From assembly GCA_973895155.1 (NCBI GenBank), contig OZ316894.1:6410234-6474233 (forward strand): DNA of 64,000 nucleotides, in the 5' to 3' direction. Below the pieces are notes generated by a model, which saw only the letters and a program-made list of their open reading frames with translations, searched no databases and had not been told where the DNA came from. The position numbers and the translations under genes are program-made. This document shows, in pieces, positions 1,489 through 43,511 of the stretch; the first letter of the stretch is position 1, and each line of letters opens with the position of its first letter. This DNA is from Marsupella aquatica (Eukaryota; Plantae; Marchantiophyta).

Positions 1489-1819
1489 ACTAGATAAATA
1501 GAGGGACTCGTAGCATTTGAAACCACTTGGGCTTAAGTTGGGTTATATTTTGTAAAACTTTGAGTTTGACTTAAACTCTGATCGATGAGTTTGATTTTGA
1601 TTACTTTTATAAAGTGCATATTTCAAGGTTTATACAATTGTGAGAATATCATATAAGATATGCTTAGATTTTGGTGGTAAAATTCTCTTGAGTCTAGTTT
1701 GGAAAATACATACCATTTTTTGGTGGTTTTTTGGTATACACTTTTTAATATCATGAAGATTTTGAAAAGAGAAATAAGGCTTTGGACTCATCCCTTAAGG
1801 CTTCTTGTTGTGGACTCAC

Positions 1820-2348: not shown

Positions 2349-2369
2349 CACTAGTGGAAAATAGTGTCC

Positions 2370-3060: not shown

Positions 3061-3147
3061 GATGTATCTAAGAAGAGCTCATAGTTATATTCAAAATCAC
3101 ATACAATGAATCCACTTAAAACCTTAAACAAAGACATCACTTTGCGC

Positions 3148-3291
3148 ATCATCATTGTATTCAGAAATTCACACTCCAACATTCACAAGCTCTAATATAG
3201 AATAATTGAAAAAACAGAAATCATCATTGTATTCAAAAATTCACATTCCAACATTCACAAGCTCTAGTATAGAACAATTGAAAAAACAGAA
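3148..3291. repeat. 72-bp tandem duplication downstream of the TnpA 3' end
   Basis: ATCATCATTGTATTCA..AAAAAACAGAA at 3148-3219 and again at 3220-3291. Confidence 0.85.
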
Positions 3292-3399
3292 GTCTTTATG
3301 ATGAAGTGATAGAAAGTACACATTTTTCACTCGCATGAGTGAAACAATGGTAACCAAAATATTCAAAAATTCTCTGTTCTACATGATCAGAGAAAATGT

Positions 3400-4065
3400 T
3401 CAACACTTTCGAAGAAACCTTGCATTCCACAATGTATTCATTCCTAACACATTCCGTAAGTGGAGTTGTTTCTCTTCTTTGTTGGGCATTGGCAATGCTG
3501 CATCACCACAATACACTGCCTTAACTAATACTAGTACCCAAGGACTCTCAATCATGACACAATGAAATTTATCCTCTCCTGGTAACCCTGTCACTTCACC
3601 TCTAGCAACAACTGTAGAGCGATCCACAACGCTTCGTACTTCTACAGCATCTCCTTTTGAAAACTGCCACACAAAATTGTTAGGACAAAATAGTATCTTG
3701 TAGTACTGATTTGGGCATATCATCAATTTAAGAACATAAGCCAACTGAAAACAAATTCACCTTTGCTGCTGGATTTGGGGAGAGAACTGGTACTCGTTCA
3801 CTAGGTGAGATAGTGATAGGGGTTGATTTCTTGAATCTCTTTGAAGGCCTAGGTGGTGTAGCCTCTTGTTCCTGAATTGCATTTGACACTATATGTTCAT
3901 CTGTGACAGCAATCTCATCACTCTCACCATTACCAATGCTGCTTTGTACAACGCAAGGTTCCTGCAGTGCTCCCAAATTTGCTTCTCCCATACTTGGCTT
4001 TGGCTTCTGCCTTGTTAAAGTATCTGATTTTTCTCGCTGTGATACAGGATTCTCCCCTGAAGAAG
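3400..4065 (-). CDS. TnpA-like gene of the inner CACTA, last two exons (Tnp1/En/Spm-like C-terminal domain)
   Basis: VVARGEV...KFHCVMI..WVLVLVKAV...AALPMP...L..VLG..TLW matches the TnpA C-terminal pattern. Separated from the upstream exons by the intron that holds the Gypsy elements. Confidence 0.75.
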
Positions 4066-4514
4066 CTACCACAAAAACCAAACAATGAATGCTTAGAAAA
4101 CTTCATTCTAAATTGAAAAATAAACTATTGCATATGTAACATGTTTAGAGTATAAGTGTGACGCCGCCGGTACGGCGGTTAATGAGTGATTCAGTCTAAC
4201 TGCGCTCGGCACGCGCGTTAGGTGGGTCTTAGGCCGCTATTATTAGCATAACGACAGTATTTAGGTAATCATTAGGAGTAGGACATCATTAGGTAATAAG
4301 GGGGACTTCAGGTTCGGGCTGGCGGCGGGTCGCTATTTGCACACCCGGGTTACGAGCGTGGAGGGGCCCCTCCCTCGGGTCCGTATAACGAACTTAAGGA
4401 AGCGGCCACTGACGCACGCTGACTCAGACCGGCGGAGTGGCCGGTACACCACAAGCGTGAGCGGTTCAACCTATGGGCGTCGAGGAGACGTCGGGGATCG
4501 ACAAGCCCTCAAAG

Positions 4515-4521
4515 TATAAAA
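4515..4521 (+). promoter_or_regulatory. TATA box in the LTR of element A, upstream of the LTR-encoded ORF
   Basis: TATAAAA followed by GGGGAG, a pyrimidine-rich leader and ATG at 4623. Confidence 0.55.
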
Positions 4522-5934
4522 GGGGAGCCAACCCTTTGTAGTGCACCAGTCCATCAGTCCGCGCGCCAGCTTTGACCCCAACTCTCTCGTTCTCTCTAGG
4601 TCGCCACTACTATCTCCTCTGAATGTCGCACACGATCCTCTCCAGCTCGGCCATTCGATTCTGGACGCAGTTCCTATCTACCGGAAGGCACTTGGCCGAT
4701 TCATTGAAACACGCCAACCCGCGCCGATACGAGATCGAACGCGAATACGAGAGAGCCATCCGCCTAGCAGGACGACACCACTACGTCCTTAACTTTGACT
4801 ACCCATCTCAGAGCGAGCTTTACCGACCAGCTGAGGTATCTGGGTACTTCTTCAACGGAGACAAATATATCGGGTTCTGGGAAGCATTGCTTCGGCTTCC
4901 GGACGAGGTCTTCAATATCCCGGGTACAATCGACCTGCAGCGACATCACTTCGACCACATCCCTGCCCAGGTTCGGGCGGTCATTAACGGTGAGTCCAGT
5001 ACCAACCGTTCGACAAGGGCGTCCGCACTCGCTTCGGAGAACTTCTACCAGCACCTACAGAGCTTCATGGGAACTCGGCCATCAACCAACATGACCAACT
5101 CAGCCGGACCCATACCCGTACCCGTACCCGTGCCCATGCAACCTCAGCTTCAGCTTCAGCCTCAGCCGCAGCCTAGCCAAACCCCCCCACCTATCACCCA
5201 GCCAGCACAAGTACGCTCCGTCATCAACGTTGTGGATCTTAGCGATGACGACGAGGCTACCCCACCCTTGACCAGGCGGCCCAGAGGAACAAGCGCTCGG
5301 GGGGCCGACACTATACCGTCCCCACCCCCTGCTCTGACCCCAGGAGCGGCCCCAGCAGACAACTTGGTGACCGTGGCCGCCCCGGGCCCGTTACCAACCG
5401 TAGTGGCACTCCCCAGGCCCGATCGGGAGGATGGGGAAGTATCACCTTCCCCGAGTCAGTCACGGGGAAAGAAGAGGAAGGAATCCGCCAGTGCATCCGG
5501 GTTATCGTTGGCCACGGTAGCCGTAGCCAAGGTAACGATGCATCGCATGGGGGAAAACGTTCACAGCAACATCCTCCATCCCAAGCATGTGGTGTACCTG
5601 AAGACTCAGGGATTTGAGCACCTCGCCTCTCTCCCCTGGAACACTTGCAGGTACTACGGGGAGGACATGACAGAATTCGTCAAGAATTATGACGACGTAC
5701 GTCAACAGACTCGGCTGCGGGGAAGGAATATGTCCCTCACAGAAGAACGGCTCAAGATGATCTTCGGGTTACCCGAAGGTGACCATCGAGTCGAATCACG
5801 GGCTCCCGGGGGCAAGGGGGCCAAGTACCAATCTTCAAGTTTTCCCTCAGAGGGATCAGTAGACAACGGGTTCGTGATGAGGACCTGCCTCATGCCCGAG
5901 ATAGCTGAGCGGCTGGAGTTCCAGAGGTACGCTC

Positions 5935-8900
5935 TGTGATGCCTAGACAGGAATCACTCGGCCGGTTAAGTGGGTAAAGCAGGAAGGCACCCTAGGAACA
6001 CCTTAGTATAGGGACAAAACAAGGAAAATATAAACAATTAGGGGCAACCATGGAACCCGGGCAGAGGCCGGAGGTAAGGCTGAGGGTGAAAACCCGATTA
6101 GGGTTAGGGCGCGTTAAGCGTTGGCGGCTAGGAAGGATCAACGGGAAGAAGGACCGGCAGAGGAGAGGGGTAAGGAGCGCTTGCAGGAGATGGTGGCTCA
6201 TTTGCGAGCACGAACTAGGCAGACGACTACGGGAGGCCAACTACTGTCAACTGCTTAGGCAAGCACTCGGGGAGAGAATAGATACCGACGATCGACCTAA
6301 GGAGGGTATGAGCAACGTCAATCAAGCGGCACATTTCTGGGGATGCCTGTTCGAACGGGCAACTGAGTACATCAAGACTTACAAGGACGAGGAGTCAGAA
6401 AGGGCAGCTCGAGAACGGCAGGAGCTCGCTCGATTGTGGGAGCTACAGAAGACGGCTTTCTTAGGAGGCGAACTCATCAAGGACGAGTTCCTGTGGACGC
6501 CTACTTCCAATCAACTCGACAATCTTCTGTTTTGCAAAGACAGCGTCGTCGGCATCCGAGAGGCCATCAAGAACTGCAATGACATACACTGGGAATTAAA
6601 GGGTAGCACGGAAAGGTGGACCCAGGCAACGGTGCTAGGAGAAACCTCCACGGCAGCAGAGATGAAGAGGAAGGGGGCCGTCAACGATGAAGCCACCCCG
6701 GCAAAAAGAACGAGGTCGGCGGCACCAAAGAGGCCAGCCGAGCAGCAGAGCAGGAGGCAGGGAGAAGCCGAAGAGGAGGAGGTCGATCCCATCAAGGCCA
6801 TTCCAACCAGGGATGACACCTGGAAGGGCTGGGCGGCAACCCTACCGGTGGAGGTGCAACTACATTTTGCACGGGAGGAGGATGCATGCTTTACGGCCAT
6901 GCAGACCAAGAAGTACCAAGGCTTCATGGCCGGATCCGGCTTGGAGGCCTTTGTAAGATTACCATGGCTGAAGCCGGAGGTACCGGAGTCAGACCTATTA
7001 GAATTCGTGGGGTCATGGGAACCCGAGACCAATTGCACGAGGATATATGGGAAGGATTTCTATCTTACTCCCAAGGTAATTGCCGAAGTGTTTGGCTTGC
7101 CGATAGGCAATAAGACCAAAGTTGATACCAGGAAGACCTTGCCTGACAAGGAGTTCCGGTCGTTCCCCGGGCCATCAACGAAGAATGGCTTCTTCCGGAA
7201 CACCTGCACCAACCCGCACATAGGAGAGATGATCGACTTCTTGCGGGTGACCATGCATTGTAACTTGCCGAGGGCAGAGATCGGCAAGGCACAGGTCTAT
7301 CTGGTAGAAAGGCCAGACCCAAGCCGGGACTACAACGGGTACCTCCTCAACCAATTGAAGAAGATCTTAAAGGAGGAGCAGCAGGTAATTGGCATGGGGA
7401 GCGTGTCGCGGCTTGGCTATCACATGCCGCTGTTGTGCCGGTATGCCAGAGGTCAGACTTTTGCCCCGGTACTTCCCCTGCAGGTAAGGGCACCCGAGGA
7501 AGCTCCAACGCCAAGGCCGTTGGCTGAGAAGCCTCAACCACCTGTTAGTCCTACGATCGAGCAAGTGTTTAGGCCCAGGAAGGAAGACTTGCCGATGCAG
7601 CAACCAGGCATGCAGAGTCTGCTGAAACTACTGGAGAAAGAAAAGAAATCAGCATCGGCAACAACAACGGCAACGGCAACAATGCAGGACACTACTACAG
7701 AGGTAGGCCTACACCGGCTCACAAGAGAAAACCCCTTTGCTGGAGACAAGGAGAGAATCAGGCCGGAATCCAAGCCAGGTGTTCGAATGTACGTGGGAAC
7801 CTCAAGCTCCGAATCTGAGGCAGAATTGCCTGAAGCTCCTACCGACGAAGAGGAGAGGGAGAAGCCGGACGTCCAAGAGGTAGAGGAGGCAGTGGAGGAC
7901 TGCAGCCATGATAATTCCGGCTATGGGTCAGACCATCACGTTCCAGGAGTAAGGACCTGTGGCCGGTTTGTCCCCACACTTCCAAGGGTAGTGCGAGGGG
8001 ACCCCAACCAGCAAAGTAGCCCTGAGTCTCCCCCACCAGATGTTGCTCCCCCGAGCTTCGACGGCATAAAACAGACGGTGCAGGAATTTCAGGAGCGAAT
8101 CAAGCAGGAGGAAGAGGCCGCCCTGGCTAAGGAAAAGGATTTACCAGGAGGAGATTGGCCGGAGGACATCAGGCGGCTAGCCGAAAAAGGAAGCAAACCT
8201 CTAGCCACGATTGAAGAGATCCGCAGGACGGCTTGGGAGCAAAGGCCACGATGGGCGATGCCGATCACTTCTACTTACTCCACCTACGCTAAGAATAGAG
8301 CCATGGAGTATGGTGAGATGTGTGGGGAACTTGCGCTCGGCATCTTTGGAGAGGAGTTGGAGGTAGGACCCTTTTTCCATAGGGAGCAGTTGGAGAAGCA
8401 CCAATTAGAAGAAGCGGTGGCTTTAGAGAGAAGCAAGAAGGACGAGGTCATTCGGCGGCTTAGGAGGATGGAAGCCGAGATTGAAGATCTAAGGGCGGCC
8501 AAGAAAGCCCAAGATGAACTGCGGATTAAACGACATGAGCTGAACATCATGCAGGGGCAGTTGGACACCGCGCAGGCTGATAATCAGAATATCAAGGATA
8601 AACTAACTCAGACGCAGGGAGAGTTGGCCAACACGATCAAAGAGAGGGAGAAGTGGAAGCAAGAGCTGAAGAATACAGAGGAGGCCCACATAACAGCCAA
8701 CAGCCGGGCCATGGCGGAGACCCAAAGAAAGGAATGGGCGTTGAAAGGGGAGCTCGAGAAAATCCGCGGAGCCCTTGAGCAAAAGGAGGTCGAGTTAGGG
8801 AAATCCTATCAAGGGATTATGGCGCTGCAGCAGGAGCTTGCGTCCCTGACGGCCAGCTTCAAGACCGACCTAAGGGAGAAGGACGAGATGCTCGAACAGA

Positions 8901-9339
8901 CTTACGCCAAGATGAACCAGATGGAGTCTGTCATCATTGCAGAGCTCGACAAGGAGCTAAGAGCAACCCAGGAGGAGAGGGCTACCTTGAAGAAGGAATT
9001 GGAGGAAGCCCACAGGGAGCAGGAGGAGGCCAAAAACGAGCTGGAGGGGGCACGTAAGGACCTGGATGAAACCCAAGAGGAGTTGGAGGAAATCACGAGG
9101 AAGATGGAGAACCTACAGCGGCGGGCCGACAACCAAACAGAGCGGCTGAAGAAACAAGCCGCAGTATTTAAATGCTTAGCTGCAGCAGGTCCATCTCCCA
9201 TTGGGACAAACCAGTTACCAGGGGTGGTAATTGCCGAAGGACAAGCCGCGCCAACTGCACCAGTGCCGGAAGTAAGTGGGAAGGGGAAGGGACCAGCTAC
9301 CGAGCCACCAACGAAGAAGAAGCGGAAACCTTCAGGGTC
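5935..9339 (+). repeat. Inverted copy of the first 3405 bp of the element-B LTR (pairs with 16765-20169)
   Basis: Colinear reverse-complement match of about 99% by eye; the ORF translations differ at about a dozen residues. Confidence 0.97.
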
Positions 9340-9391
9340 CCCACTTAATTGTGAAGCGTCCTCGCGAACAACTTCATCTTCGTCCATATAG
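6050..9391 (+). CDS. LTR-encoded protein of element B, inverted copy (1113 aa, open frame, chimeric C-terminus)
   Basis: Uninterrupted ORF with a PMD-like core (IYGKDFYLTPKVIAEVFGLPIG) and a long coiled coil. The last ~16 residues come from the antisense strand of the integrase end. Confidence 0.75.
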   Translation: MEPGQRPEVRLRVKTRLGLGRVKRWRLGRINGKKDRQRRGVRSACRRWWLICEHELGRRLREANYCQLLRQALGERIDTDDRPKEGMSNVNQAAHFWGCLFERATEYIKTYKDEESERAARERQELARLWELQKTAFLGGELIKDEFLWTPTSNQLDNLLFCKDSVVGIREAIKNCNDIHWELKGSTERWTQATVLGETSTAAEMKRKGAVNDEATPAKRTRSAAPKRPAEQQSRRQGEAEEEEVDPIKAIPTRDDTWKGWAATLPVEVQLHFAREEDACFTAMQTKKYQGFMAGSGLEAFVRLPWLKPEVPESDLLEFVGSWEPETNCTRIYGKDFYLTPKVIAEVFGLPIGNKTKVDTRKTLPDKEFRSFPGPSTKNGFFRNTCTNPHIGEMIDFLRVTMHCNLPRAEIGKAQVYLVERPDPSRDYNGYLLNQLKKILKEEQQVIGMGSVSRLGYHMPLLCRYARGQTFAPVLPLQVRAPEEAPTPRPLAEKPQPPVSPTIEQVFRPRKEDLPMQQPGMQSLLKLLEKEKKSASATTTATATMQDTTTEVGLHRLTRENPFAGDKERIRPESKPGVRMYVGTSSSESEAELPEAPTDEEEREKPDVQEVEEAVEDCSHDNSGYGSDHHVPGVRTCGRFVPTLPRVVRGDPNQQSSPESPPPDVAPPSFDGIKQTVQEFQERIKQEEEAALAKEKDLPGGDWPEDIRRLAEKGSKPLATIEEIRRTAWEQRPRWAMPITSTYSTYAKNRAMEYGEMCGELALGIFGEELEVGPFFHREQLEKHQLEEAVALERSKKDEVIRRLRRMEAEIEDLRAAKKAQDELRIKRHELNIMQGQLDTAQADNQNIKDKLTQTQGELANTIKEREKWKQELKNTEEAHITANSRAMAETQRKEWALKGELEKIRGALEQKEVELGKSYQGIMALQQELASLTASFKTDLREKDEMLEQTYAKMNQMESVIIAELDKELRATQEERATLKKELEEAHREQEEAKNELEGARKDLDETQEELEEITRKMENLQRRADNQTERLKKQAAVFKCLAAAGPSPIGTNQLPGVVIAEGQAAPTAPVPEVSGKGKGPATEPPTKKKRKPSGSPLNCEASSRTTSSSSI

Positions 9392-12300
9392 TATTTCTTG
9401 AGGCGGTCATAATGGATGCGAACTGGATATACCTCTCCCGTAATGTTGGCCAATTGTACGGAGCCATTGGGGAACATCATGGTTACTCTAAAGGGTCCTA
9501 ACCAGCGAGTGTAAAGCTTTCCTGGAAACCTACTATACCTACTGTCATAAAGTAGCACAAGATCACCGGTATGAATACTAACTACTTTTAACCTTTTATC
9601 ATACTGCTGCTTCATGATATTCTGTCTATATTCTACTCTCTCGGCTGAAATCATTCTCGCTTCCTCTAAAGCTTCTAACCTATATTCTCGCTCCTTTAGG
9701 CTCTCCTCCGCTGAGGCTCTTTCCTCAATTGTAACTTGAAATGTCGGTATCTCAAGTTGCATGGGTACCAGGGCTTCTTGTCCAAAGGTTAAGAAGAAGG
9801 GTGTATGACCGGTAGTGGATTTATAGGCAAGATTGTAAGCAAAAACAGCAGCAAACAATTTATCATCCCAATCGAGTTTGTTCTGAGCTACTGTCTTGTT
9901 CAATATCTTTCCTATGATTCCGTTTGCTCATTCTGTCAACCCGTTTGCCTTTGGATGGTAGGGAGTAGTAGGCCTATGTTTAACTAAATACTGCTCATTT
10001 AAACGACTAATTATATCATTCAAAAAATGGGTTCCTCTATCACTAACTAATTCTAGGGGTGCTCCATACCTGGTGAAGATCTGCTCATACATGAATCTAG
10101 CCATCGTAATTGCATCATCCTTCGTTGTTGGTCTGGCCTCTATTCATTTAGTTGCATAATCCGTAGCCAGGATTATATACTTGTTCCGTCGAGGGTGGGT
10201 CAGTGGTTTCAGAGGTCCAATGTAATCAATACCCCACTTCTCGAATGGTGCCAGAGGTAGAATAGGGTGCAGTGGATGCCTGGTGGACGCCCTTGGTCCT
10301 CCCGCTCGTTGACAAGGATCGCATTGTTTGATAAACTGATAGACATCTTTGTGCAAGGTGGGCCACCAGTAACCGGCATTTAATATCTTCTTAGACGTGG
10401 TTACTGGGGCAAAATGTCCTCCGGCCTCCTCTCCATGCATGGCCCGTAGGACTCGTTTTACCTCTCTCTTTTCCAAACATCTTTGAATCGTGCCGTTGAT
10501 TCCATGCTTGTGCAGTATGCCTTTAATGCACTGATACCGTCTGACCTTCCGCACAAAGACTGCGGCTTGCTCTCGGCTTAATCCTGGCTGTAATCTGGAA
10601 GTGCTGAGAAATTGTAAAATCTCAGGGTACCATGTACCAGCTATTTCCACAACGAATAGCTCCTCGTCGGGGAATCGATCATCAATGCAATCCGTGGCAG
10701 GTTTACCTGTGATCCTTGAAAAGAAGTCGGCATTGGCATGTAACTTTCCCGGCTTGATCCTCAGCTCATAGTCAAACTCCTGTAATAGCAAAATCCATCT
10801 TGCTACTCTGCCTGTAAGGTCCGGCTTATTGACTAGGTACTTCAAACTTTCATGATCAGTATGAAAGATTACCTTGTACCCTAGTAAATAATGCCTAAAC
10901 TTTTTACAAGAATAAATGACTCCTAATGCTTCTCTTTCCGTGGTAGAGTAGTTCCGTTCGGCATCGGCAAGCTGACGGCTTGCGAAGTATATGGGATGGT
11001 CCCTTCCTTTCTCATCCAACTGACTTAGTACTGAGCCAATACAGAAGCCCGAGACATCTACAAAAACATGAAAATCTTTGTTCCAGTCCGGTGCTATCAT
11101 GACTGGGGCCTCTACTAACATCTGCTTCAATTCTACCACCGCTGTGACTCGTTCGGGTGTGGGTTCGAAGTCTGCTCCTGCCTTGAGCATATTGGTTAAT
11201 GGTAAAGCCAGCTTGGCAAAATCCTTGATGAACCGGCGATAGTAACCAATGCATCCCAAGAAGGATCTTACATCCTTTATGTTCTTAGGTTGCATGATAT
11301 CTAGCCATACTGCTAGCTTACCTTTGTCAATCTCAATGCCCTTCCTTGATACCTTGTGACCTAGTAGCACCCCCTCGGTTACTGCAAAAAAACATTTATC
11401 TGGGTGTAACTTGAGACCCACCTCTCTACATCTCATGAAGGTTTTCCTGAGGTATTTAGCATGTTTCGATGCCTTCCCGAATACTGCAAAGTCATCAATG
11501 AAGATTTCCATGAACTTTCTCAAGTAATCATGAAAAATGTTCACCATTAATCGTTGGAACATAGCTGGTGCGTTGCAGAGTCCAAACGGCATACGATTGA
11601 AGACATAGATCCCCCATTCCGTGATGAAGGCCGTCTTGATTTGGTCTTCCTGCCGAATCCTGATTTGGTTATAACCAGAGTATCCATCCATGAATGAATA
11701 TAGTTCATGACTGGCTACCATGTCTAGTACCATATCAGTAAACGGTAAAGGAAAATGGTCTTTTAATGTTGCTTCATTCAGCTTCCTGTAATCCTGACAA
11801 ACCCGGATCTTGGGTTTACCATCGGGTCCAGCTTTCTTGGGAACTATCACAATTGGAGACACCCAGTCTGAATGCAGGACTGGAGTGATGAATCCAGCTT
11901 CCACTAGTTTGTCGATTTCTGTTTTGACCAGCAGGGAATACTTCGGGTTCATCCTTTGAATTGGTTGTCGAAATGATTTGGCTCCTAACATGAGATCAAT
12001 TCGATGTTCCCCTAGTGTTGGATCTACTCTCTTTAGATCTTGGTGACTCCATGCAAACACATCCTGAAATTCAATCAATAAGTCACTGATCTCTTTCTCG
12101 AGCTCAGGTGCTAGGTTTCTCCCTAAGTTCAGTTCTCTTCCCTCTCCTAAGTCGAGCTTCCGATATTGCCATGCTTGGATCATATTAATCTGCTTCTTCA
12201 AATTCGGGTCCAGTTCGGCTTCCAGTCTCTCTAATCTCATACCTCCATAAACTAGGATCTCGGCTGGACTAGCCGAGTCGGTCCCTTCCTTGGTGTCCAT

Positions 12301-12588
12301 AGATTGTCCCCTTACCGGTCTATTCGGTTTTGAATTAGTGGTCGGCTCCCCTTCCTGCCTTGGCTCTGGATCGTGTCTGTCCATCTCATCCACTTCTTGC
12401 TCCTGAGAGTTAGGCCGTTGTGCTCTCTCGGCTTCTAATAGGGCCTCAATTTGTTCTGCCCTCGTAATCGGCTTGTATGCCGATCCCTTGGTATTTAATT
12501 CCTTGCCGATGATCGATGGCGTTGTGGACCCCGTCGGCTCTGCCACAACGCCTGCAGAAAATCCACTGTCCCTGCTACTGCTCCCCAC
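9340..12588 (-). pseudogene. pol: Element B pol: reverse transcriptase, RNase H, integrase
   Basis: RT: SPIVIVPKK, DYRKLN, DGYSGYNQI, MPFGLCNAP, FIDD. RH: DVSG, EREAL, TDHESL. INT: H..GGH/CDPC zinc finger, WGIDYIGP, SDRGTHF, GPF motif. In-frame stops at 10144 and 9928. Confidence 0.95.
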
Positions 12589-15488
12589 TTAGCCGTTTCA
12601 TCCAATTGGTCTACATCCTTTACTTCCTCCGGAATTGCAGCTAAAAAGGTGGATTCTATTGTAAAGCAGTCCTCGACCTCTTCGTCTTCTTCTTCCAAGT
12701 CACCTTCCATTGGTTCTTGCCATAATCCGCTGGGGGGTACCTCTGGTCCAAAGACACCTTCTTCGGTTAGGTTAGTGAGGCATTCTAACCAACGTACTTC
12801 ATCGGCTGACTCCAGTCCACTATCGTACCCATCTACTTCCCTTATGCTTTTCCTACGGTCATCCTTAGTGTCCCAGGATACCGTGATAGAGGGGGTCCCG
12901 AAAGTGAACTGCTTTTTACCCCAATCTTCTATTACCTCGGCTAGGTACAGCCATGGCCTACCAATCAATAGCCGGAATGACGTAGGATTTACCGGCTTCA
13001 TTACTACATAGTTAATGCTAAAGAAGATACCTCCTATCTCTGTCTTGATGCCGGTTAACACTCCCGTCGGAATGACCTGATATCCATTGGCCATGTTCAA
13101 CACTCTTCCAGTCATCTCCGGTGTTAGACCCCACCCTTTTGCTGTTGAATCAATCATAATACATACCCCTGATCCTCCATCGATGGGTACCCGTAGTAAT
13201 AATTCTCCTTGAATCATTAATGGTAATGCTGGGGCTCCTTGATCTTCTTCTATCATTAGTACGTCGGATCTGGTTGCTACCTTGGGTAATCTCGGCTTGC
13301 CGAGAATAGCCTTCCTTAATTGCTTCCGGAAGTACGGGCTATTTTTCAATAGTTGACCTACTGTTGCCGAGACTCTAGATTCTAGTACATCTTTAGCCAG
13401 GTCATAGGGAACAATCGGCTTCTCTTCTGGTGGTGTTTCCGTCTTGGATTCGGCCAGTTTTGCCACGCTAGTCTCCACAGCTGTTGGGTCTTCCGAAGCA
13501 AACAATGCTTTTGCTCGTTTTACATCCTTGGCAATGGCTTCGGTATTCTCCAGGGTTTCTAATTCTCTTAGTTGTTCCTTAACACTAGCCGTAACAGAGG
13601 GGTAAAACAACTTAGGATGATCTCGATTGAAGTCGCTATCTTGTGAAGGATTGGTTTCACTAGTGGGCTCATGGCTTACCTGTATTGCCGGAGCCCTCCC
13701 TTCTCCTTCTGTTGATGTTGACGAAGAGTCGATCCTTTCCTCCGTAACCTTCCCTTTATTTTTGGCCAGCCCATCCCACCTTTCCTTCCTTCTGGTAGAT
13801 CGAGTAGAGACCCGGTAGCAATCATGATCTAAATCCTCCTCTGAGAAGGTTGATAGGGCTTCGGCCTCATCATCAGATGGTACGAACTCTGCCTCGGCAT
13901 CCTCTTGCCATCCTAGTTCGATGTGGTTGATTTGAACTCCTCCGGGGGTAGTACCTGGCGGTAAGATCTTGATCGGCAAAAGCTTATGATTTGCGGCCAG
14001 GCCTGCCAACCAAGTAGGACATTGCCCTAGCATATGACCTTCCTGTCGGCATCCCATACATAGCTGAGCTGGTTGTCCATCACCCTGTTTGCGTGCATTC
14101 GGGCATTCTCTAGCAAAATGGCCAGGTTGACCACAATTATAGCACGCCGCAAATCTTTGCACATTCGGCCTAGGAGGTACTGACGGGTTCTGAATAATCC
14201 GAGGATACATCTCTCCTGGATTGTTCCTTAACCCTGACCACAGAGATGCAGGTCTGTTGGATAGGTCTCGTGCTCCAATCTCACTGATGCCGAAAACACT
14301 ATCAGCGGCATCTCCTAAAAAGTACTCTACTTCTCCCTGACATGGTCTGATCTCGGCCACATGCCGAACATGATTAGTATTAAGCTTAGGACACGCATCT
14401 TTATGGTGTCCGGTTTTATAACATAAGGCACACCATACAGAGCTATCCTCCTGTACTACCTTCTTCTTTGGTTTTACCTCTGCAATGATAGCCTTAAGTT
14501 GCTCGGTAAGGGCTACGATGTTATCTGGTGGCTTAGCCTCCATCTTGACTTTCGTCTTCCCTCTCCTTCTGCCCTTCCTTTTCCTAGTTTTTTCTTCTTC
14601 AGAACTAGAAGATGACTCACTCTTGCTACTCCCACTATCCGAGCTTGACTTATCACTTCTAGACTTCTTGGGATGTTTCTTCTTCTTATCTTTTTTCTTA
14701 TGGGGTGATCCCTCCTCTGATGAGGAACTCTCAGACTTAAGCTGTTTCTTCCGGCTTGTGATATCTGCATTAATGTATAATTGAATATCCTTAATTGCTT
14801 CGGCTAAAGTCTCCGGGTTCTCCTTCCTAATTGCAAAACTCATCTTCTGTGGCAAAGCATTCACCAACCATTGAAGTTGCATACCTTCAGATGCATTGGT
14901 CTTTGTACGTCTTACCAGTTTCTGAAAGCGTTGCAAGAACTTCCTGAAGGATTTGTTCTCCTTGAACCGAAGTTGTCCCAACTTCAGCACTGCTAGTTCT
15001 GAAGTTCCAATGGGTCGAAACTCCTTAACAAAGAGTGTTTTGAAGATATCCCAGATGGCTTGATCTTCCACATCTAATGCTCTGTACCAAGGCCTAGCCT
15101 CACCCTTGAACAGGCCGGGAAGAATCTGCATCTTGATGGCCGATTCTCCATTTGCTGCAGCGGTTCCCTCGAAATCATCCAACCATTCGTCCGGATCCTC
15201 ATCTCCTCTCCCATGAAATGCCTTGTAATGTATGCGCGACCGCTAGCTCAATCTGGTCCCTGGCCTCTCGTCTGGCCGTGCCTCTGGTTCCCCCATGTCG
15301 GTTGGAGACTCACTTCTCCTTACCGACTCTTCTTCTGGTATGTCTTCTTCGACGCCACTTCCAGTTTCGGAGCTACCAGCTCTTTCTGCCCCTCTCAGTC
15401 GCTGTGTATCATGCCACCCGGCGAGCTGCTGCAGTCGAGCTCTCTCCCGTTGAATCACTCTTTCTTCCCTCGACATAAGGTCAGTCAT
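12495..15488 (-). pseudogene. gag: Element B gag-protease
   Basis: DPDEWLDDFE gag N-terminal domain, three CCHC knuckles (CALCYKTGHHKDAC, CYNCGQPGHFAREC, CMGCRQEGHMLGQC), protease IDGGSG and LIGRPWL. In-frame stop at 15243; in a different frame from pol. Confidence 0.92.
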
Positions 15489-15532
15489 TACCTACGCTTC
15501 CGTTCTAACTTCATATCTCACGGCTTAAGAAA

Positions 15533-15553
15533 TGCCCCCTCCATCTAGCGCCA
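15533..15553 (-). promoter_or_regulatory. Primer-binding site of element B
   Basis: TGGCGCTAGATGGAGGGGGCA just after the LTR end ..CACCACA; identical to the PBS of element A. Confidence 0.85.
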
Positions 15554-15557
15554 AAAA

Positions 15558-18500
15558 TGTGGTGCGTCCCATGGCTCCCTAAACCCAAGAAACCCCCCAG
15601 CTCAAGCCGATTCCCGCAGGTTTCGTGCTTGGCGAGGCCGTTTCCGCGGCTTAGCGGCATGGGACGCTGCTAACCTTCTACTACTACTATTAACATTTTA
15701 CACACATATACTGGACAGATCCTTCATCGGGTCATGAGATACATAGCCGGCCTAATATAGGCCTTCCCCTGTCTTCCCCTGTCTTCCCCTCCGTCTTGTT
15801 AGGTATGTTTGGATTCCGCTGCCGGAATGATCCCCAATAGGCTTGGTTAAGCCGTTAAGACCTCTCTCAGCTCGACACATCCAACTCTCACTCCCCTGCT
15901 TACTTTCCTTCCTTCTGTTGATGTGGGCACTCTTCACACAAGTTAATGCGACACACAAATAGCAAAATGACTCATTCTGACTGAGTCATACCATGCACTT
16001 GCCATACAAACAGTACATCTCATACACAAGTTCTGCGAACTAAGCCGTGAGGCCAACTCTATTCAGCTCTTAGGCATGAGGAAACATGAATATACACAAG
16101 GGTCACTGTATGACTAACCGAGAGCTTCTCGTACTACTTGATCCCAGCCCGGCTGGTGCAAACTAAAAACTTGCCATAGAAGAGGCCCTGAGCTCCCCGC
16201 TGCCCAGGTACTTATCCTGGTAGTGGATCCGCCATTCTTTGCATCGTAAGCCTAATCTACTTAACAGTAATCTACTTGCCCGAATCTACCTATGTACAGC
16301 AAGGCAGGAGCACAAGTGTTGCTCCTACCAGTGGGACCGCAATCCCACTAAGCTAAGTGTCAGGGCCGCTCCTGGTTCTGATCCTAATCCTAAACGTGGA
16401 GATCCGCGCCCGCCCTGCCCACTCACGCCTCCTCCCTCCACGTCCACCCTCCCTAAAAGGAACGGCGCCCTTGCACCGTCACGACACCGGTGGTGGATCC
16501 TTAATGGACGCCCCCAACGCTTCCTCCTCAGCCATTGCCGTAGGTTCATTCTCTGACAGATTACCTGCCCTTGACTGAGTCAACTCTCCATCGGCCTGAC
16601 TGGGTCCACCTTCGGCTTCAGCCTCGACACCGGCCTCGGCAATACCCACGGCTTCGGCCTCCCCTTCCCCTAGGGTAGTTGGATCCTTAGCCGTGACCCT
16701 GTCTGGGGTCGGTGCTGGGTCTACCTCCTTGATCACCACGGCCTGTGAAGTCGTATTACTCCTTGACCCTGAAGGTTTCCGCTTCTTCTTCGTTGGTGGC
16801 TCGGCAGCTGGTCCCTTCCCCTTCCCACTTACTTCCGGCACTGGTGCAGTTGGCGCGGCTTGTCCTTCGGCAATTACCACCCCTGGTAACTGGTTTGTCC
16901 CAACGGGAGATGGACCTGCTGCAGCTAAGCATTTAAATACTGCGGCTTGTTTCTTCAGCCGCTCTGTTTGGTTGTCGGCCCGCCGCTGTAGGTTCTCCAT
17001 CTTCCTCGTGATTTCCTCCAACTCCTCTTGGGTTTCATCCAGGTCCTTACGTGCCCCCTCCAGCTCGTTTTTGGCCTCCTCCTGCTCCCTGTGGGCTTCC
17101 TCCAATTCCTTCTTCAAGGTAGCCCTCTCCTCCTGGGTTGCTCTTAGCTCCTTGTCGAGCTCTGCAATGATGACAGACTCCATCTGGTTCATCTTGGCGT
17201 AAGTCTGTTCGAGCATCTCGTCCTTCTCCCTTAGGTCGGCCTTGAAGCTGGCCGTCAGGGACGCAAGCTCCTGCTGCAGCGCCATAATCCCTTGATAGGA
17301 TTTCCCTAACTCGACCTCCTTCTGCTCAAGGGCTCCGCGGATTTTCTCGAGCTCCCCTTTCAACGCCCATTCCTTTCTTTGGGTCTCCGCCATGGCCCGG
17401 CTGTTGGCTGTTATGTGGGCCTCCTCTGTATTCTTCAGCTCTTGCTTCCACTTCTCCCTCTCTTTGATCGTGTCGGCCAACTCTCCCTGCGTCTGAGTTA
17501 GTTTATCCTTGATATTCTGATTATCAGCCTGCGCGGTGTCCAACTGCCCCTGCATGATGTTCAGCTCATGTCGTTTAATCCGCAGTTCATCTTGGGCTTT
17601 CTTGGCCGCCCTTAGATCTTCAATCTCGGCTTCCATCCTCCTAAGCCGCCGAATGACCTCGTCCTTCTTGCTTCTCTCTAAAGCCACCGCTTCTTCTAAT
17701 TGGTGCTTCTCCAACTGCTCCCTATGGAAAAAGGGTCCTACCTCCAACTCCTCTCCAAAGATGCCGAGCGCAAGTTCCCCACACATCTCACCATACTCCA
17801 TGGCTCTATTCTTAGCGTAGGTGGAGTAAGTAGAAGTGATCGGCATCGCCCATCGTGGCCTCTGCTCCCAAGCCGTCCTGCGGATCTCTTCAATCGTGGC
17901 TAGAGGTTTGCTTCCTTTTTCGGCTAGCCGCCTGATGTCCTCCGGCCAATCTCCTCCTGGTAAATCCTTTTCCTTAGCCAGGGCGGCCTCTTCCTCCTGC
18001 TTGATTCGCTCCTGAAATTCCTGCACCGTCTGTTTTATGCCGTCGAAGCTCGGGGGAGCAACATCTGGTGGGGGAGACTCAGGGCTACTCTGCTGGTTGG
18101 GGTCCCCTCGCACTACCCTTGGAAGTGTGGGGACAAACCGGCCACAGGTCCTTACTCCTGGAACGTGATGGTCCGACCCATAGCCGGAATTATCATGGCT
18201 GCAGTCCTCCACTGCCTCCTCTACCTCTTGGACGTCCGGCTTCTCCCTCTCCTCTTCGTCGGTAGGAGCTTCAGGCAATTCTGCCTCAGATTCGGAGCTT
18301 GAGGTTCCCACGTACATTCGAACACCTGCCTTGGATTCCGGCCTGATTCTCTCCTTGTCTCTAGCAAAGGGGTTTTCTCTTGTGAGCCGGTGTAGGCCTA
18401 CCTCTGTAGTAGTGTCCTGCATTGTTGCCATTGCCGTTGTTGTTGCCGATGCCGATTTCTTTTCTTTCTCCAGTAGTTTCAGCAGACTCTGCATGCCTGG

Positions 18501-20169
18501 TTGCTGCATCGGCAAGTCTTCCTTCCTGGGCCTAAACACCTGCTCGATCGTAGGACTAACAGGTGGTTGAGGCTTCTCAGCCAACGGCCTTGGCGTTGGA
18601 GCTTCCTCGGGTGCCCTTACCTGCAGGGGAAGTACCGGGGCAAAAGTCTGACCTCTGGCATACCGGCACAACAGCGGCATGTGATAGCCAAGCCGCGACA
18701 CGCTCCCCATGCCGATTACCTGCTGCTCCTCCTTTAAGATCTTCTTCAATTGGTTGAGGAGGTACCCGTTGTAGTCCCGGCTTGGGTCTGGCCTTTCTGC
18801 CAGATAGACCTGTGCCTTGCCGATCTCTGCCCTCGGCAAGTTACAATGCATGGTCACCCGCAAGAAGTCGATCATCTCTCCTATGTGCGGGTTGGTGCAG
18901 GTGTTCTGGAAGAAGCCATTCTTCGTTGATGGCCCGGGGAACGACCGGAACTCCTTGTCAGGCAAGGTCTTCCTGGTATCAACTTTGGTCTTATTGCCTA
19001 TCGGCAAGCCAAACACTTCGGCAATTACCTTGGGAGTAAGATAGAAATCCTTCCCATATATCCTCGTGCAATTGGTCTCGGGTTCCCATGACCCCACGAA
19101 TTCTAATAGGTCTGACTCCGGTACCTCCGGCTTCAGCCATGGTAATCTTACAAAGGCCTCCAAGCCGGATCCGGCCATGAAGCCTTGGTACTTCTTGGTC
19201 TGCATGGCCGTAAAGCATGCATCCTCCTCCCGTGCAAAATGTAGTTGCACCTCCACCGGTAGGGTTGCCGCCCAGCCCTTCCAGGTGTCATCCCTGGTTG
19301 GAATGGCCTTGATGGGATCGACCTCCTCCTCTTCGGCTTCTCCCTGCCTCCTGCTCTGCTGCTCGGCTGGCCTCTTTGGTGCCGCCGACCTCGTTCTTTT
19401 TGCCGGGGTGGCTTCATCGTTGACGGCCCCCTTCCTCTTCATCTCTGCTGCCGTGGAGGTTTCTCCTAGCACCGTTGCCTGGGTCCACCTTTCCGTGCTA
19501 CCCTTTAATTCCTAGTGTATGTCGTTGCAGTTCTTGATGGCCTCTCGGATGCCGACGACGCTGTCTTTGCAAAACAGAAGATCGTCGAGTTGATTGGAAG
19601 TAGGCGTCCACAGGAACTCGTCCTTGATGAGTTCGCCTCCTAAGAAAGCCGTCTTCTGCAGCTCCCACAATCGAGCGAGCTCCTGCCGTTCTCGAGCTGC
19701 CCTTTCTGACTCCTCGTCCTCGTAAGTCTTGATGTACTCAGTTGCCCGTTCGAACAGGCATCCCCAGAAATGTGCCGCTTGATTGACGTTGCTCATACCC
19801 TCCTTAGGTCGATCGTCGGTATCTATTCTCTCCCCGAGTGCTTGCCTAAGCAGCTGACAGTAGTTGGCCTCCCATAGTCGTCTGCCTAGTTCGTGCTCGC
19901 AAATGAGCCACCATCTCCTGCAAGCGCTCCTTACCCCTCTCCTCTGCCGGTCCTTCTTCCCGTTGATCCTTCCTAGCCGCCGATGCTTAACGCGCCCTAA
20001 CCCTAATCGGGTTTTCACCCTCAGCCTTACCTCCGGCCTCTGCCCGGGTTCCATGGTTGCCCCTAATTGTTTATATTTTCCTTGTTTTGTCCCTATACTA
20101 AGGTGTTCCTAGGGTGCCTTCCTGCTTTACCCACTTAACCGGCCGAGTGATTCCTGTCTAGGCATCACA
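15558..20169 (-). repeat. 5' LTR of element B (4612 bp)
   Basis: Runs from the TSD-flanked terminus TGTGATGC to GCACCACA (7/8 inverted match), immediately before the PBS. Confidence 0.88.
16479..20054 (-). pseudogene. LTR-encoded ORF of element B, full-length copy (1191 codons, one premature stop)
   Basis: ORFs 19512-20054 and 16479-19472 are in the same frame. TAG at 19512-19514 corresponds to TGG at 6590-6592 in the other copy. Confidence 0.85.
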
Positions 20170-22416
20170 CGCTCTCCACATGATGGAACCCCGGGGGGAG
20201 ATCTCCGCCGCCCAGGTCATCCAGGTCGAGAACTATCGACCTAGGAAATGGGCGTCGTACTTCGCTAAGAAATTCCATGAAGAGATGGAGCGGCGAAGGA
20301 AGACGCTGTACATTGGCGGGAAGGCGTATTTGGCTAGCCACATCGAAATCATTCTTGAGTGGTACGCCCGGTTTGATCGACGAACCCTTCCCCGCATCAA
20401 CGTTACAAAGCTGGTCCCAGCTAGGTGGGTTTTTCCGGCATTGGAGAGACGGCCCCAACCCGAGGCCTGAAGTCCAGTGGACACGCCAGCTTCACCCACC
20501 CCACCTCCACAAATAGCTGTAATCGTAACCGAGGAGGCGCCGGAGGGGTCGGTCGTCGCAACCGTTGCTGCGACCCAACTAGCCGGGCTAAGTACAGAAG
20601 TTGGTACGGCAGAGGTCTTACCCGAACCCGGGTCTCCCAAGGACCCGCCGGTGGCAATTCTGGAGAACCGGACATCGCTGCAGGAGGACACTCCAGCCCC
20701 TTCCAACGTTATGTCCCCAGGGCTGGACGTCACTGCCCCGGCCCCTGCGCGTGTTGATGTCTGCCCGTGCCCAAATCCGGACAGGCACAACTTGGACCAC
20801 CCGAAACTCTTCGTACAGGGTACGTTTCTGAACGGGCTTCTGGGAGATTTCTCTCATCAAATTGCCCGGGATACCGGGGAGTTCATGCCCCGGAAGGTAG
20901 CCTGTTTCTTCAATCAGGAGTTGGTTGCCGCCGTAAAGGCAGGTCGGGCCCAGTCGGAGGCCCTTCAGAGGATAGAGCGGTACCGGGTGGAGTCCGTGTA
21001 CCTAAAGAACGAAGTGGCGGCTCAAGAGGCTGAGCTTCTGTAACTACGACCCAAGGTTGCAGCCGCCGATGAGTTGTTAGCAAAGGCGTATGCTCTTACC
21101 GCCCTAGCCGAACAGGCCAAAGCTGGGAACGAGGCCGAGATTACACGACTCCGGAACCAGATTGACAGTTTGAAGAAACAAGCTGTCACCTGGCAGAAAG
21201 ACCTGGAGGAGGCCGAGGAGCGAGCCCAGCGGGACGCGACGGAGATAGCCACGCTGCAGGCCGAGATGGCGCGGCTCCAAACCGAGGCCGAGAAGCAGGA
21301 CCAGCTGGCGAGTAAACTGACGAGCGACGCCCAGCAGCTGGAGGAGGCATGTCAGGAGGCAGCAGAGGAGACGGACGCGGCGAGGCGAGAGAACGAATCT
21401 CTGCTAGACCAGGTCCAGCTCCTCAAAGCAGACAATGATAGGCTTCGAAGGCAGCGGGATGGCCGTTCCCATTCAGGCGGCTCTGGCAAGCGTGCCAGGC
21501 ATTAGCGGCGGAGTAGGAATAGATTAGGATTAGGATTGGCTTAGTTAGGCTCTTGGGACAGGCACCTGCCTTAGGTACAGCAGCGCTGCCCTGCTGTCCA
21601 GCCTGCGTAGAGTAGGATCTTCTAATAAGACACAGCCGTTTTCCGGCCTGACTGTCAGCTTAGTTAGGACCTTGGTCAGCGAATCTTCGGCGGGAGGACA
21701 CCCTGTTCCTCGGCTCTTAGTATTTAGTGCACCCCTCGGTAGAGGCAAGGGGGGGTTTTTAGTTTCAGAGTCGGACATCCGCGGGACATGCGGGGAGTCC
21801 CGACCTCTGGGAATGACAAAGTACCAATGGGAGGGGGTAGGACTAAGCTCGCCGGGCGAGTGCGGAGCCGGGCTCCGTTGTAGTGTGCACCCTTGGCCTT
21901 GAACCTGTGCATTCCAGGGCTGTCGTGTCAACTAAGTGTACGCATATGTTCCCTTTGTAGTAAAATCCTTTCCCATCATTTTTCCTTCATGTAAATCGAG
22001 ATTGTATGCATGTGTGCGCATATGTGTGTGGGTTTCTCGTATATGGGTGGCAGCGCCGGGCCGAACGCACTACCCGAGACGTGCACAGGGTGCAGCCTGC
22101 GGGTAAGTGGTTGCGAGCACGGGTTGAGGACCTGTATCATCGAATCCGGATCGAAGGCGGATAGCACGAAGGCTTAGAAGCCCTTAAGCCGGGGTCGATC
22201 CTGCTATCGACTAAGGTACGTTCCGGCGGCGGAACACAAACCATACCTAGGAGGTGTCTGTATTTAGCAGTATGCGCACTTAGCGCTAGTTTACGAGAAT
22301 AAGGTGCATTACGTGCTTCCCTTCCTGCCCGAACCCTCAGATTTACGAGGGATGTGCCCGTCTAAGCTGAAGTCTGAGTTAAGGCCGAAGCCTACGACGT
22401 GACATAGCCTTTGTTT

Positions 22417-22437
22417 TGGCGCTAGATGGAGGGGGCA
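22417..22437 (+). promoter_or_regulatory. Primer-binding site of element A
   Basis: TGGCGCTAGATGGAGGGGGCA, 12 bp after the LTR end. Confidence 0.85.
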
Positions 22438-22527
22438 CTCTACATATCGTAGAGGGGAGACATGTGCGTATTCACCTAGGCAGGATACATCAGGACGTAG
22501 TACTAACCATTGCATTTATATGAGTAA

Positions 22528-23769
22528 ATGCCCGTCACTCGTTCTCAAGCAGCTTACTTGAGGAGATTGACCAGCGAACGAGAAAGTGCAACCACAACAA
22601 GCTCCGACTCGTCGGGCTCGGAGGACTCGCAATCGTCCCGACGTATGAACATACCCCCGGGATCTTCGGGGTCCGGTTCGACCGGCCCTGCTGCGGTTCC
22701 ACCACCACCACCACCACCACCACCACCTATGGCAGCCGCTCCACCGGTGGCCCGCGCTGCTCAGGCGCCTCCACAAATATCGCAACGATCGCGATTTCAT
22801 TATCGACCTTTCAAAGGGCGTCATGGGGATGATCCGGATGAATGGTTGGATGAGTTTGAAGCCACTGCTAAAGCTAATGGGGAAGACGCCATTAAGCTAA
22901 CCGTCCTCCCGGGAGTAATGCGGGGAGAAGCTCGTCCATGGTATAACTCGTTACCACCCGGGACTACCTGGGCACAATTCCAAGCTGCATTGTTGCAGGA
23001 GTTTCGTGCCATTGGATCAGAATAGCGTTCTCTATTAAAGATTGGCCAGCTTCGCATGGGAAAAAAAGAGTCCCTGCGGAAGTTCATTCAGAAGTTTCAG
23101 AAACTTGCGGCCAAGATCCGGCCCAGGCCAGGAGACGCGCTCCAGCTTACATGGTTCCTTCATGGTTTGCCCACGAATATGCAATTCTGGGTACGCCAGA
23201 ATAATCCAATTTCAATGCAGGCGGCCATAGCGTGCGCCGAAACTTACCGGGAGTCCACCTATAACTCCCGGCGGAGCCAGCGAGCACGCCGCATGAAGGG
23301 TAAGTACGAAACCTTCAGTGACAGTGACTCCGAATTGGACGACGAGAGGAAGAAGAAACGCAAGAAGAAGAAGAAACATCGTTCGACCTCGTCCAGCTCC
23401 GAGACGGAATCCAGTTTGGATTCAGCTTCAAGCATCGGATCCTCTACCTCCAGTTCATCAGGAAGTGACTTGGAGAGCGAAAGCCGGAGAAAAAAGAAGA
23501 AGAGACGAGTGAAGAAGGAGGGGAAGATTAAACCCCAGGCGCGAAGAACGATACCAGATCCAAAGGCTGCCGAAGCAGACAAGCTGAACGAAATCACGGA
23601 TCGACTCAAAGCACTGTCAGTACATCTTGCGGAGAAGCCGGTGGAAAAGAAGAAGCCATCTGAGATTCGAGCCCATGCGTGGTGTTCAAAGTGCTTCCAA
23701 TCCGGCCATGTGGTGCAGGAATGCCCAAGGTGGAAGAACCGAGTTCACCAAGTAGAGCTGGATAACTGA
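22528..23769 (+). pseudogene. gag: Element A gag, truncated after the first zinc knuckle
   Basis: MPVTRSQ start, DDPDEWLDEFE, CSKCFQSGHVVQEC; in-frame TAG at 23023; homologous to element B gag. Confidence 0.9.
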
Positions 23770-30745: not shown

Positions 30746-30795
30746 TACTTTCTACTATGCAGTGTTTTCTACACAACTGAAGGCTTAATTATGAT

Positions 30796-43350: not shown

Positions 43351-43511
43351 GTAATATACTTCATTTCAGTCTCTCTTTATAGTCACGTGACCGTTCGCGT
43401 TATAAAACTTATTTTTCATTTTCTAATGTTTTACAGAAACCTAGCCCAAAACCCCCTGATCAAGTAAAGAAGGCACCAGTAAAGAAGGCACTAGTAAAGA
43501 AGGCACCAATC

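What the first reader, a model, noticed from the sequence alone, without database searches (positions are those of the whole stretch)
5930..20174. Gypsy element bounded by 3.4-kb inverted repeats yet with a perfect 5-bp TSD
Seen: in element orientation the order is 5' LTR (4612 bp), PBS, gag-pol, a PPT-like TAAGTGGGGA, then the first 3405 bp of the LTR in reverse, ending at the TSD. Both ends are therefore U3 ends, and the inversion junction sits where the 3' LTR should begin. Established: LTR retrotransposons have direct repeats, and integrase makes the TSD. Inference: integrase used two U3 ends (from two cDNAs later joined, or a fold-back cDNA), or this is a family with TIR-like architecture. 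The arms differ by about 1%, including a stop codon, which argues against a simple assembly artefact.
Basis: partly seen in the sequence, partly recalled or inferred. Interest (0 to 1): 0.8.

Follow-up and report, generated by a model that had tools for sequence, protein, structure and literature searches.

The report
Gypsy retrotransposon with flipped second LTR
A dead copy of an ordinary plant jumping gene carries the same end on both sides under one clean insertion scar, likely because a half-made DNA strand primed at the wrong place during copying; it is a readable record of a copying error, not a new kind of element.

Summary
Two 3,405-bp inverted arms (99.3% alike, no gaps) both start at the LTR's 5' (U3) tip. 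They sit inside a perfect 5-bp duplication that splits an ORF of an older, related Gypsy element in frame. Of 24 transitions between the arms, 23 are at CG/CHG sites, so both arms look like aged genomic DNA, not an assembly copy. The 'TIR family' reading fails. In contigs of 5 runs (3 studies) the PPT runs straight into a direct LTR, and no displayed piece crosses 9339/9340. The joint lies 4-6 bases before the normal 3' LTR start, with a 2-base overlap and no LTR terminus. Most likely a truncated plus-strand strong-stop DNA mis-primed at the PPT end, and integrase inserted the product by two U3 ends (0.5; with a related flip route 0.7). A later inversion (0.17) or misassembly (0.08) is not excluded, because no reads across the joint were available. 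Side finding: the family's 4.6-kb LTR holds a ~1,210-codon ORF, as does the host element's LTR. The scan noted similar inverted-LTR copies in other genomes (unchecked AI notes).

The parts
5930..5934 (.). Left target-site duplication, CGCTC
   Evidence: the host ORF stays in frame when one copy is counted
5935..9339 (+). Inverted arm: LTR bases 1-3405, U3 tip outward
   Evidence: 25 substitutions, no gaps, against 20169-16765
5996..9391 (+). LTR-borne ORF in the inverted arm, open for 1,131 codons, cut by the joint (it reads 17 codons past it)
   Evidence: no Pfam family over cut-off; distant relatives in the liverwort Calypogeia fissa
9338..9339 (.). Inversion joint with a 2-base overlap (TC); no LTR terminus, no restriction site of the kind seen at ligation chimeras
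9338..9347 (-). Polypurine tract TAAGTGGGGA; in normal copies a 4-base spacer and the direct 3' LTR follow
9340..12588 (-). pol: RT, RNase H, integrase; in-frame stops at 10144-10146 and 9928-9930
   Evidence: homologues end at the same place
12495..15407 (-). gag and protease; in-frame stop at 15243-15245; frame changes to pol between 12495 and 12588, whereas 5 of 5 homologues tested are one chain
15536..15553 (-). Primer-binding site, 4 bases after the LTR's CA; the same 18-mer follows the host element's LTR
   Evidence: the tRNA was not identified by a tool
15558..20169 (-). Complete 5' LTR, 4,612 bp, TG...CA
   Evidence: contig depth over the LTR is 3.5-4.6 times the internal depth in X1 and X2 (from; depth is not a copy number)
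16479..20108 (-). Full LTR-borne ORF, about 1,210 codons (globular N-part, long coiled-coil-like C-part), broken by a stop at 19512-19514
20170..20174 (.). Right target-site duplication, CGCTC
4157..5934 (+). Host element, left part of its ~4.0-kb LTR with a homologous ORF (from 4623)
   Evidence: (30.6% over 134 aa, E 1e-10)
20175..23768 (+). Host element, rest of the LTR (to about 22404), PBS (22417) and truncated gag (22528-about 23768)

Best explanation
This is a single dead copy of an ordinary direct-LTR Gypsy family whose 3' LTR is replaced by an inverted copy of LTR bases 1-3405, likely made during reverse transcription and likely inserted by integrase through two U3 ends. Inferred route: a plus-strand strong-stop DNA that had copied only the first 3,405 bases paired its last two bases with the 3' end of the PPT on a plus-sense strand. 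It was extended through pol, gag and the PBS as if it were the minus strand, and the usual last jump completed the 5' LTR. The duplex then had a U3 tip at each end; integrase joined both to a 5-bp staggered cut in the LTR ORF of an older relative. Both arms later aged by methyl-C deamination. Shown: geometry, TSD, joint position, family architecture, mutation pattern. Inferred: every step of the route.
For: TSD flush with TG...CA on both sides. The host ORF continues in frame and colinear across one TSD copy: local score 66, reached by 0 of 300 shuffles; the other two frames scored 21 and 24. Normal copies have PPT, 4-base spacer, direct LTR: 24 of 24 loose ends listed at 9338, plus X1 (2) and X3 (3). 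So the joint sits 4-6 bases from the normal plus-strand start. The spacer at the PBS end is also 4 bases. The arms are sisters: at 11 of 21 listed contig-variant sites in the left arm both arms share a letter against the contig variant, 5 of them (6676, 6732, 7513, 8605 and, less sharply, 8059) against the majority in X1. In Ty3 the PPT primes repeatedly, is re-cleaved, and displaced strong-stop DNA accumulates (PMC5371799, passages). RTs, including Tf1 RT, join 3' ends by two complementary bases with at least one G or C in vitro (PMC3035444, abstract and passages). Integrase assays give concerted integration with one short LTR-end oligonucleotide as donor (PMC11054761, passages). Aberrant cDNAs inserted under one TSD are known in cereals (PMC1950507, first half read).
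Against: No read or contig across 9339/9340 was seen: 0 of 32 pieces shown, of 180 laid. A 2-base overlap arises by chance in 16% of random joints. The clamp needs a second template abutting the first, which here would need a minus strand ending near LTR base 3403; nothing shows one. The Tf1 clamp was substantial only with Mn2+ in the DNA-template assay. Ty3 re-priming is not shown for this lineage. Taking A/T as the derived letter, the arms aged unequally (18 left, 6 right, p = 0.023), which equal-age sister arms do not predict. The TSD matches the five bases before the normal 3' LTR at 3 of 5 places (chance 0.10), which favours a later inversion a little.
Confidence: 0.5

Rival explanations
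1. Flip inside the integration complex. A finished cDNA with a plus-strand break at the PPT/U3 boundary was cut on the other strand after the internal CA, freeing the 3' LTR with a fresh U3 tip. Integrase used the two U3 tips, and host end-joining fused the PPT end to the trimmed U5 end (1,207 bases lost).
For: It needs one cDNA only. It explains sister arms, loss of exactly the 4-base spacer and a 2-base overlap. A break at the PPT/U3 boundary is part of Ty3 replication.
Against: Cutting at an internal att site opposite a nick is my inference; no paper read shows it. It gives the same product as the best explanation, so these data cannot separate the two.
Confidence: 0.2
2. A normal insertion was rearranged later: the 3' LTR was inverted between its own imperfect terminal repeats and lost 1.2 kb in the same event.
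For: The LTR tips are imperfect inverted repeats (TGTGATGC against TGTGGTGC). With the TSD and spacer the match extends to 10 of 12 bases, so a crossover in TGTG would leave the TSD intact.
Against: It needs two breakpoints, one inside a 4-base window at the outer tip and one within 6 bases of the PPT boundary, 4.6 kb apart. The added TSD match has a 10% chance level.
Confidence: 0.17
3. Misassembly: the true locus has a direct 3' LTR, or the contig joins different copies of a high-copy family.
For: The family is very abundant, and no contig shown bridges the joint. No reads of the source were available.
Against: There is no N in the window. The arms differ by substitutions only, 23 of 24 transitions at CG/CHG (background 39%, p = 5e-9), spread evenly (KS p = 0.44). 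The arms share rare letters. A false join would have to fall exactly on the TSD/LTR boundary as well as at the PPT. The contigs laid did not show the left arm's own letter at 9299 in the pieces listed, so they may not hold this copy at all.
Confidence: 0.08
4. A replicating family or subfamily with TIR-like architecture.
For: Only the clean symmetry of this one copy.
Against: Every listed continuation of the PPT is a direct LTR, including contigs down to depth 14-20. This copy has three in-frame stops and a frame change in gag-pol. With no R repeat at its 3' end it could not make the first strand transfer (established retroelement biology).
Confidence: 0.02

Closest known systems
Ty3/gypsy non-chromovirus elements of plants (OTA/Athila-like; Neumann et al. 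2019, PMC6317226, passages)
   Same: Domain order, 5-bp TSD, PBS within 0-5 bases of the LTR, no chromodomain, LTRs up to about 5 kb, extra ORFs.
   Different: This copy has inverted ends. The extra ORF lies inside the LTR. The RT groups with Riccia sorocarpa and unnamed proteins, apart from 14 angiosperm proteins (quick tree).
Complex insertions made by abnormal template switching (Sabot and Schulman 2007, PMC1950507, first half read)
   Same: An abnormal cDNA inserted in one step under one 5-bp TSD, with near-identical outer LTRs.
   Different: Those have three LTRs in direct orientation with U3 and U5 outer ends; here both outer ends are U3.
Auto-integration inversion circles (Arabidopsis SISYPHUS; PMC7197481, passages)
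   Same: An inverted segment arising in the particle.
   Different: Those are circles joined at an LTR terminus. This joint has no terminus, and the product is in the chromosome.
DIRS-1 retrotransposons (PMC3950715, start of abstract)
   Same: Inverted LTRs around an RT.
   Different: DIRS use a tyrosine recombinase. This element has a DDE integrase and a TSD, and its family has direct LTRs.
Mu killer of maize (PMC3440606, start of abstract)
   Same: A multi-kilobase inverted duplication of transposon sequence that could give a hairpin RNA.
   Different: Mu killer comes from a DNA transposon and is shown to silence. Here neither transcription nor silencing was tested.

Membership tests
Ty3/gypsy LTR retrotransposon | gag-PR-RT-RH-IN order | tested here: met
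   (protease and rve matches are below Pfam cut-offs; position and homologues agree)
Ty3/gypsy LTR retrotransposon | TG...CA LTR followed by a PBS; PPT after pol | tested here: met
Ty3/gypsy LTR retrotransposon | Two LTRs in direct orientation, in this copy | tested here: not met
   second LTR partial and inverted; so this is a rearranged copy, not an intact member
Ty3/gypsy LTR retrotransposon | Two LTRs in direct orientation, in the family | tested here: met
   the PPT continues into the direct LTR start in 5 runs, 3 studies
Ty3/gypsy LTR retrotransposon | 4-6-bp TSD | tested here: met
Tat clade (OTA) | Additional archaeal RNase H domain | tested here: not met
   no second RNase H family in Pfam scans; 102 aa between RH and the integrase zinc finger; integrase ends at the PPT
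Phygy clade | NCGN target motif | tested here: not met
   the TSD is the 5-mer CGCTC; motif from PMC6317226; one site only
Athila clade | RT/RH phylogeny inside Athila | tested here: inconclusive
   groups apart from the angiosperm hits; no labelled reference lineages, quick tree, midpoint root
DIRS order | Tyrosine recombinase in place of a DDE integrase | tested here: not met
   Integrase_H2C2 and rve found, no recombinase family
TIR-type replicating family | The same joint at several loci with different TSDs | tested here: inconclusive
   no genome held; no piece across the joint among 32 shown of 180 laid; contigs drop rare variants
Auto-integration product | Joint formed by an LTR terminal CA | tested here: not met
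   the joint is PPT against internal LTR base 3405
Mu killer-like hairpin silencer | Read-through hairpin RNA and siRNAs | not testable with these tools
   no RNA holder listed

The most novel reading that the evidence does not exclude
Two-U3-end insertions are a regular by-product of plus-strand priming in a liverwort-type Gypsy lineage whose 4-5-kb LTRs encode a ~1,200-residue protein. Their joints mark the PPT primer end to the base. Such copies, with two inward-facing LTR starts and a 3.4-kb 99% duplex, act as natural hairpin silencers of their own family.
Probability: 0.15. Interest if true: 0.72.

Novelty: new variant of a known kind. Interest (0 to 1): 0.45.

Why it matters
If real, it is in-vivo evidence that a plant Gypsy integrase accepts two U3 ends and still makes a perfect TSD, and it places a reverse-transcription error at the PPT to within three bases. 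The LTR-FINDER survey cited here scored 5'/3' LTR pairs of at least 95% similarity; tools of this kind look for direct repeats (recalled), so such copies would be missed, and their frequency is open and easy to measure. A 3.4-kb inverted repeat of a high-copy LTR is a candidate source of family-wide siRNA. Separately, an LTR that carries a 1,210-codon ORF, shared with a diverged host element, deserves description. As it stands it is one dead copy.

Tried and rejected
Whole-genome search for the joint: no genome is held. Expression: no RNA holder listed. Homologue search with LTR-ORF residues 250-520 at near lengths: 1,342 candidates, none at E <= 0.001. The all-representative search found 22 at E <= 0.001; 18 of them scanned had no Pfam family over cut-off, and 4 of 7 looked up were named, or had members named, Calypogeia fissa. 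Atlas hits were all under 0.9 (ATHILA and Transposase_32 clusters at 0.83), a lead only. Contig joints that looked like further inversions (such as 8788 to 12592) were set aside: 8 of the 15 joints shown have GATC or CTNAG at an end, as in proximity-ligation chimeras; 3 end on the LTR tip; 4 short skips were not followed; 212 were not shown. Two co-packaged templates as the cause of the 18:6 asymmetry: weakly disfavoured, because 2 stops in the scored gag-pol frames fit the left-arm rate (expected 1.37, P 0.40) better than the right-arm rate (0.48, P 0.085). An opposite-orientation nested or allelic insertion at the exact boundary was considered and judged improbable. No tRNA gene in the window. 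The supplement fetched from PMC6317226 was chromodomain logos and of no use; its lineage table (Additional file 5) was not seen and may bear on lineage, PBS and LTR length. Literature: (inverted LTR, two U3 ends, U3-U3, provirus inversion) listed no paper on a gypsy insertion with inverted LTRs and a TSD. One search found none on ORFs inside bryophyte LTRs. The library lacks most subscription journals, so this is weak evidence of absence.

Full report
OBSERVATION. Self-comparison of the window gives one long inverted repeat, 5935-9339 against 20169-16765: 3,405 bp, 25 mismatches, no gaps; the window has no N. CGCTC flanks both ends flush with TG...CA (chance about 0.001). Read on the minus strand, the element is a 4,612-bp LTR (20169-15558), a 4-base spacer, a PBS, gag, protease, RT, RNase H, integrase, a PPT, and then LTR bases 3405 to 1 in reverse. 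The LTR's 3' tip occurs once in the window and its 5' tip twice.

THE TSD IS GENUINE. The target is the LTR ORF of an older, related Gypsy element (start 4157, identical 18-base PBS at 22417, gag from 22528). Its ORF matches residues 306-432 of the insert's LTR ORF left of the insertion (E 1e-10). It resumes right of it in the frame expected when one 5-bp copy is counted, matching residues 420-485 (score 66, 0 of 300 shuffles; other frames 21 and 24). Nothing of the target is lost, as expected for an integrase cut; 93.4% of plant elements have 5-bp TSDs (PMC6317226, passages).

THE ARMS LOOK LIKE AGED, SISTER GENOMIC DNA. Of 25 differences 24 are transitions, and 23 of those are at CG or CHG sites, which make up 39% of C/G positions (p = 5e-9). 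They are evenly spread (KS p = 0.44); K2P is 0.0074. One search lists 40 of 860 variant sites, 21 of them in the left arm. At 10 of these the arms differ, and in all 10 the contigs carry the right-arm letter, so those changes are private to the left arm. At the other 11 both arms share a letter against the contig variant, at four sites a letter held by under 4% of the X1 depth. Against my reading, the split of presumed deaminations is uneven, 18 left to 6 right (p = 0.023). The internal stops fit the higher rate slightly better, so the 5' LTR may simply have mutated less; this stays unexplained.

THE FAMILY HAS DIRECT LTRS. No genome is held, so I laid contigs of public runs that hold 37-73% of the words of 5400-15399. 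On 4000-16760, loose ends join the PPT to the LTR start (X1, 2 contigs; X3, 3 contigs). Median depth over the LTR is 3.5-4.6 times the internal depth in X1 and X2 (depth is not a copy number). On 9290-9389, 180 pieces were laid from X1, X2 (57% read), X4 and X5. All 24 loose ends listed at 9338 continue through a 4-base spacer into a direct LTR start, and both listed at 9339 continue into the normal LTR. None of the 32 pieces shown, chosen by the tool as the longest or at a joint (52 bases at most), crosses the joint. This removes the TIR-family reading. It does not test whether this single copy is real, because contigs drop rare variants and these may be other individuals. Other apparent inversions fall mostly on GATC or CTNAG sites and look like proximity-ligation chimeras.

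THE JOINT. On the sense strand the PPT side ends 4-6 bases before the normal LTR start; two bases (GA/TC) fit either side. The other side is LTR base 3405, inside the ORF. There is no LTR terminus, so integrase strand transfer did not make this joint, unlike the inversion circles of PMC7197481 (passages). The PBS-side spacer is also 4 bases. By symmetry the joint would coincide with the primer's 3' end; that is an inference.

MECHANISM. In Ty3 the PPT primes several times, is re-cleaved from the new DNA, and displaced strong-stop DNA accumulates (PMC5371799, passages). RTs, Tf1's among them, can join two 3' ends by two complementary bases in vitro, given an abutting second template (PMC3035444, abstract and passages). 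I therefore think a strong-stop strand cut short at base 3405 primed on the PPT end and was extended as a minus strand, giving a duplex with two U3 tips that integrase inserted (0.5). A flip of the element's own 3' LTR in the integration complex, closed by host end-joining, gives the same product (0.2). A later inversion between the LTR's imperfect terminal repeats is helped by a 3-of-5 likeness of the TSD to the PPT spacer (chance 0.10) but needs two precise breakpoints (0.17). Misassembly is 0.08, a replicating TIR form 0.02. The 2-base overlap alone is weak evidence (chance 0.16). The copy is dead: three in-frame stops and a frame change in gag-pol, where 5 of 5 homologues tested are one chain.

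LINEAGE AND THE LTR ORF. The RT-RH region is 72-74% identical to unnamed environmental proteins, 56-58% to two Riccia sorocarpa proteins and mostly 35-51% to angiosperm ones. A quick tree of 36 rows (the query and 35 hits picked by hand from the 120 listed; the careful search did not finish) puts it with Riccia and unnamed rows, apart from 14 angiosperm rows. There is no archaeal RNase H and no chromodomain. The LTR carries an ORF of about 1,210 codons, open in the left arm up to the joint and broken by one stop in the 5' LTR. It has no Pfam family over cut-off, 22 distant relatives including Calypogeia fissa proteins, and weak Atlas leads to Athila-type ORFs. LTRs of about 5 kb and extra ORFs are known in non-chromoviruses; one search found no paper on an ORF inside a bryophyte LTR.

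COMPARISON AND NOVELTY. It works like the template-switch insertions of PMC1950507 (first half read) but with inverted ends. It resembles DIRS only in outline (listings and starts of abstracts). It could act like Mu killer (start of abstract), which is untested. Searches listed no description of a gypsy insertion with inverted LTRs under a TSD, in a library that lacks most subscription journals. This scan's notes list similar copies in other genomes (unchecked AI notes, not used as support; one pointed to PMC1950507, and two word the mis-priming idea much as I do). Nothing was noted for this genome or for look-alike DNA.

VERDICT. Very likely real (about 0.9) and unusual, but a one-off dead derivative of a direct-LTR family: a new variant of a known kind, interest 0.45.

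Noticed in passing
window 4157-5934 and 20175-23768: The host is a diverged Gypsy relative with the same PBS and a ~4.0-kb LTR that also contains a homologous ORF, so an ORF inside the LTR looks like a lineage trait. A TATA-like motif lies near the LTR start in both (LTR base 95; window 4515), so U3 may be short and the ORF may lie in R or U5. Unmapped.
   Followed up: partly
window 8398, 8718, 16412 joined to 15558: Contig joints to the LTR's U5 tip, not at GATC sites, suggest copies nested in the LTR of their own family.
   Followed up: no
window 919-1485: N6_N4_Mtase (PF01555, E 1.6e-8) fragment, apparently with an upstream exon. By eye a Tnp2-like remnant follows at about 1830-2200, so it may be DNA-methylase cargo of a CACTA-type transposon.
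   Followed up: no
window 25737-31683 (-): CACTA-type genes: Transposase_21, DUF4218, weak DUF4216, and a PHD-finger ORF. The host Gypsy breaks off in gag about 2 kb before them.
   Followed up: no
window 40109-45958: A Lys/Glu/Ala-rich repeat ORF, a Ulp1 protease ORF and three NIF-type phosphatase ORFs in a row; possibly cargo of a large DNA transposon.
   Followed up: no
window 59672-64000; 2691-3065; 53687-53726: Diverged tandem repeats of about 570 bp and about 83 bp, a short tandem array, and a perfect 40-bp palindrome.
   Followed up: no
runs X1, X2: Many contig joints fall on GATC or CTNAG sites, so these runs look like proximity-ligation libraries and their joints are not genomic evidence.
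   Followed up: partly
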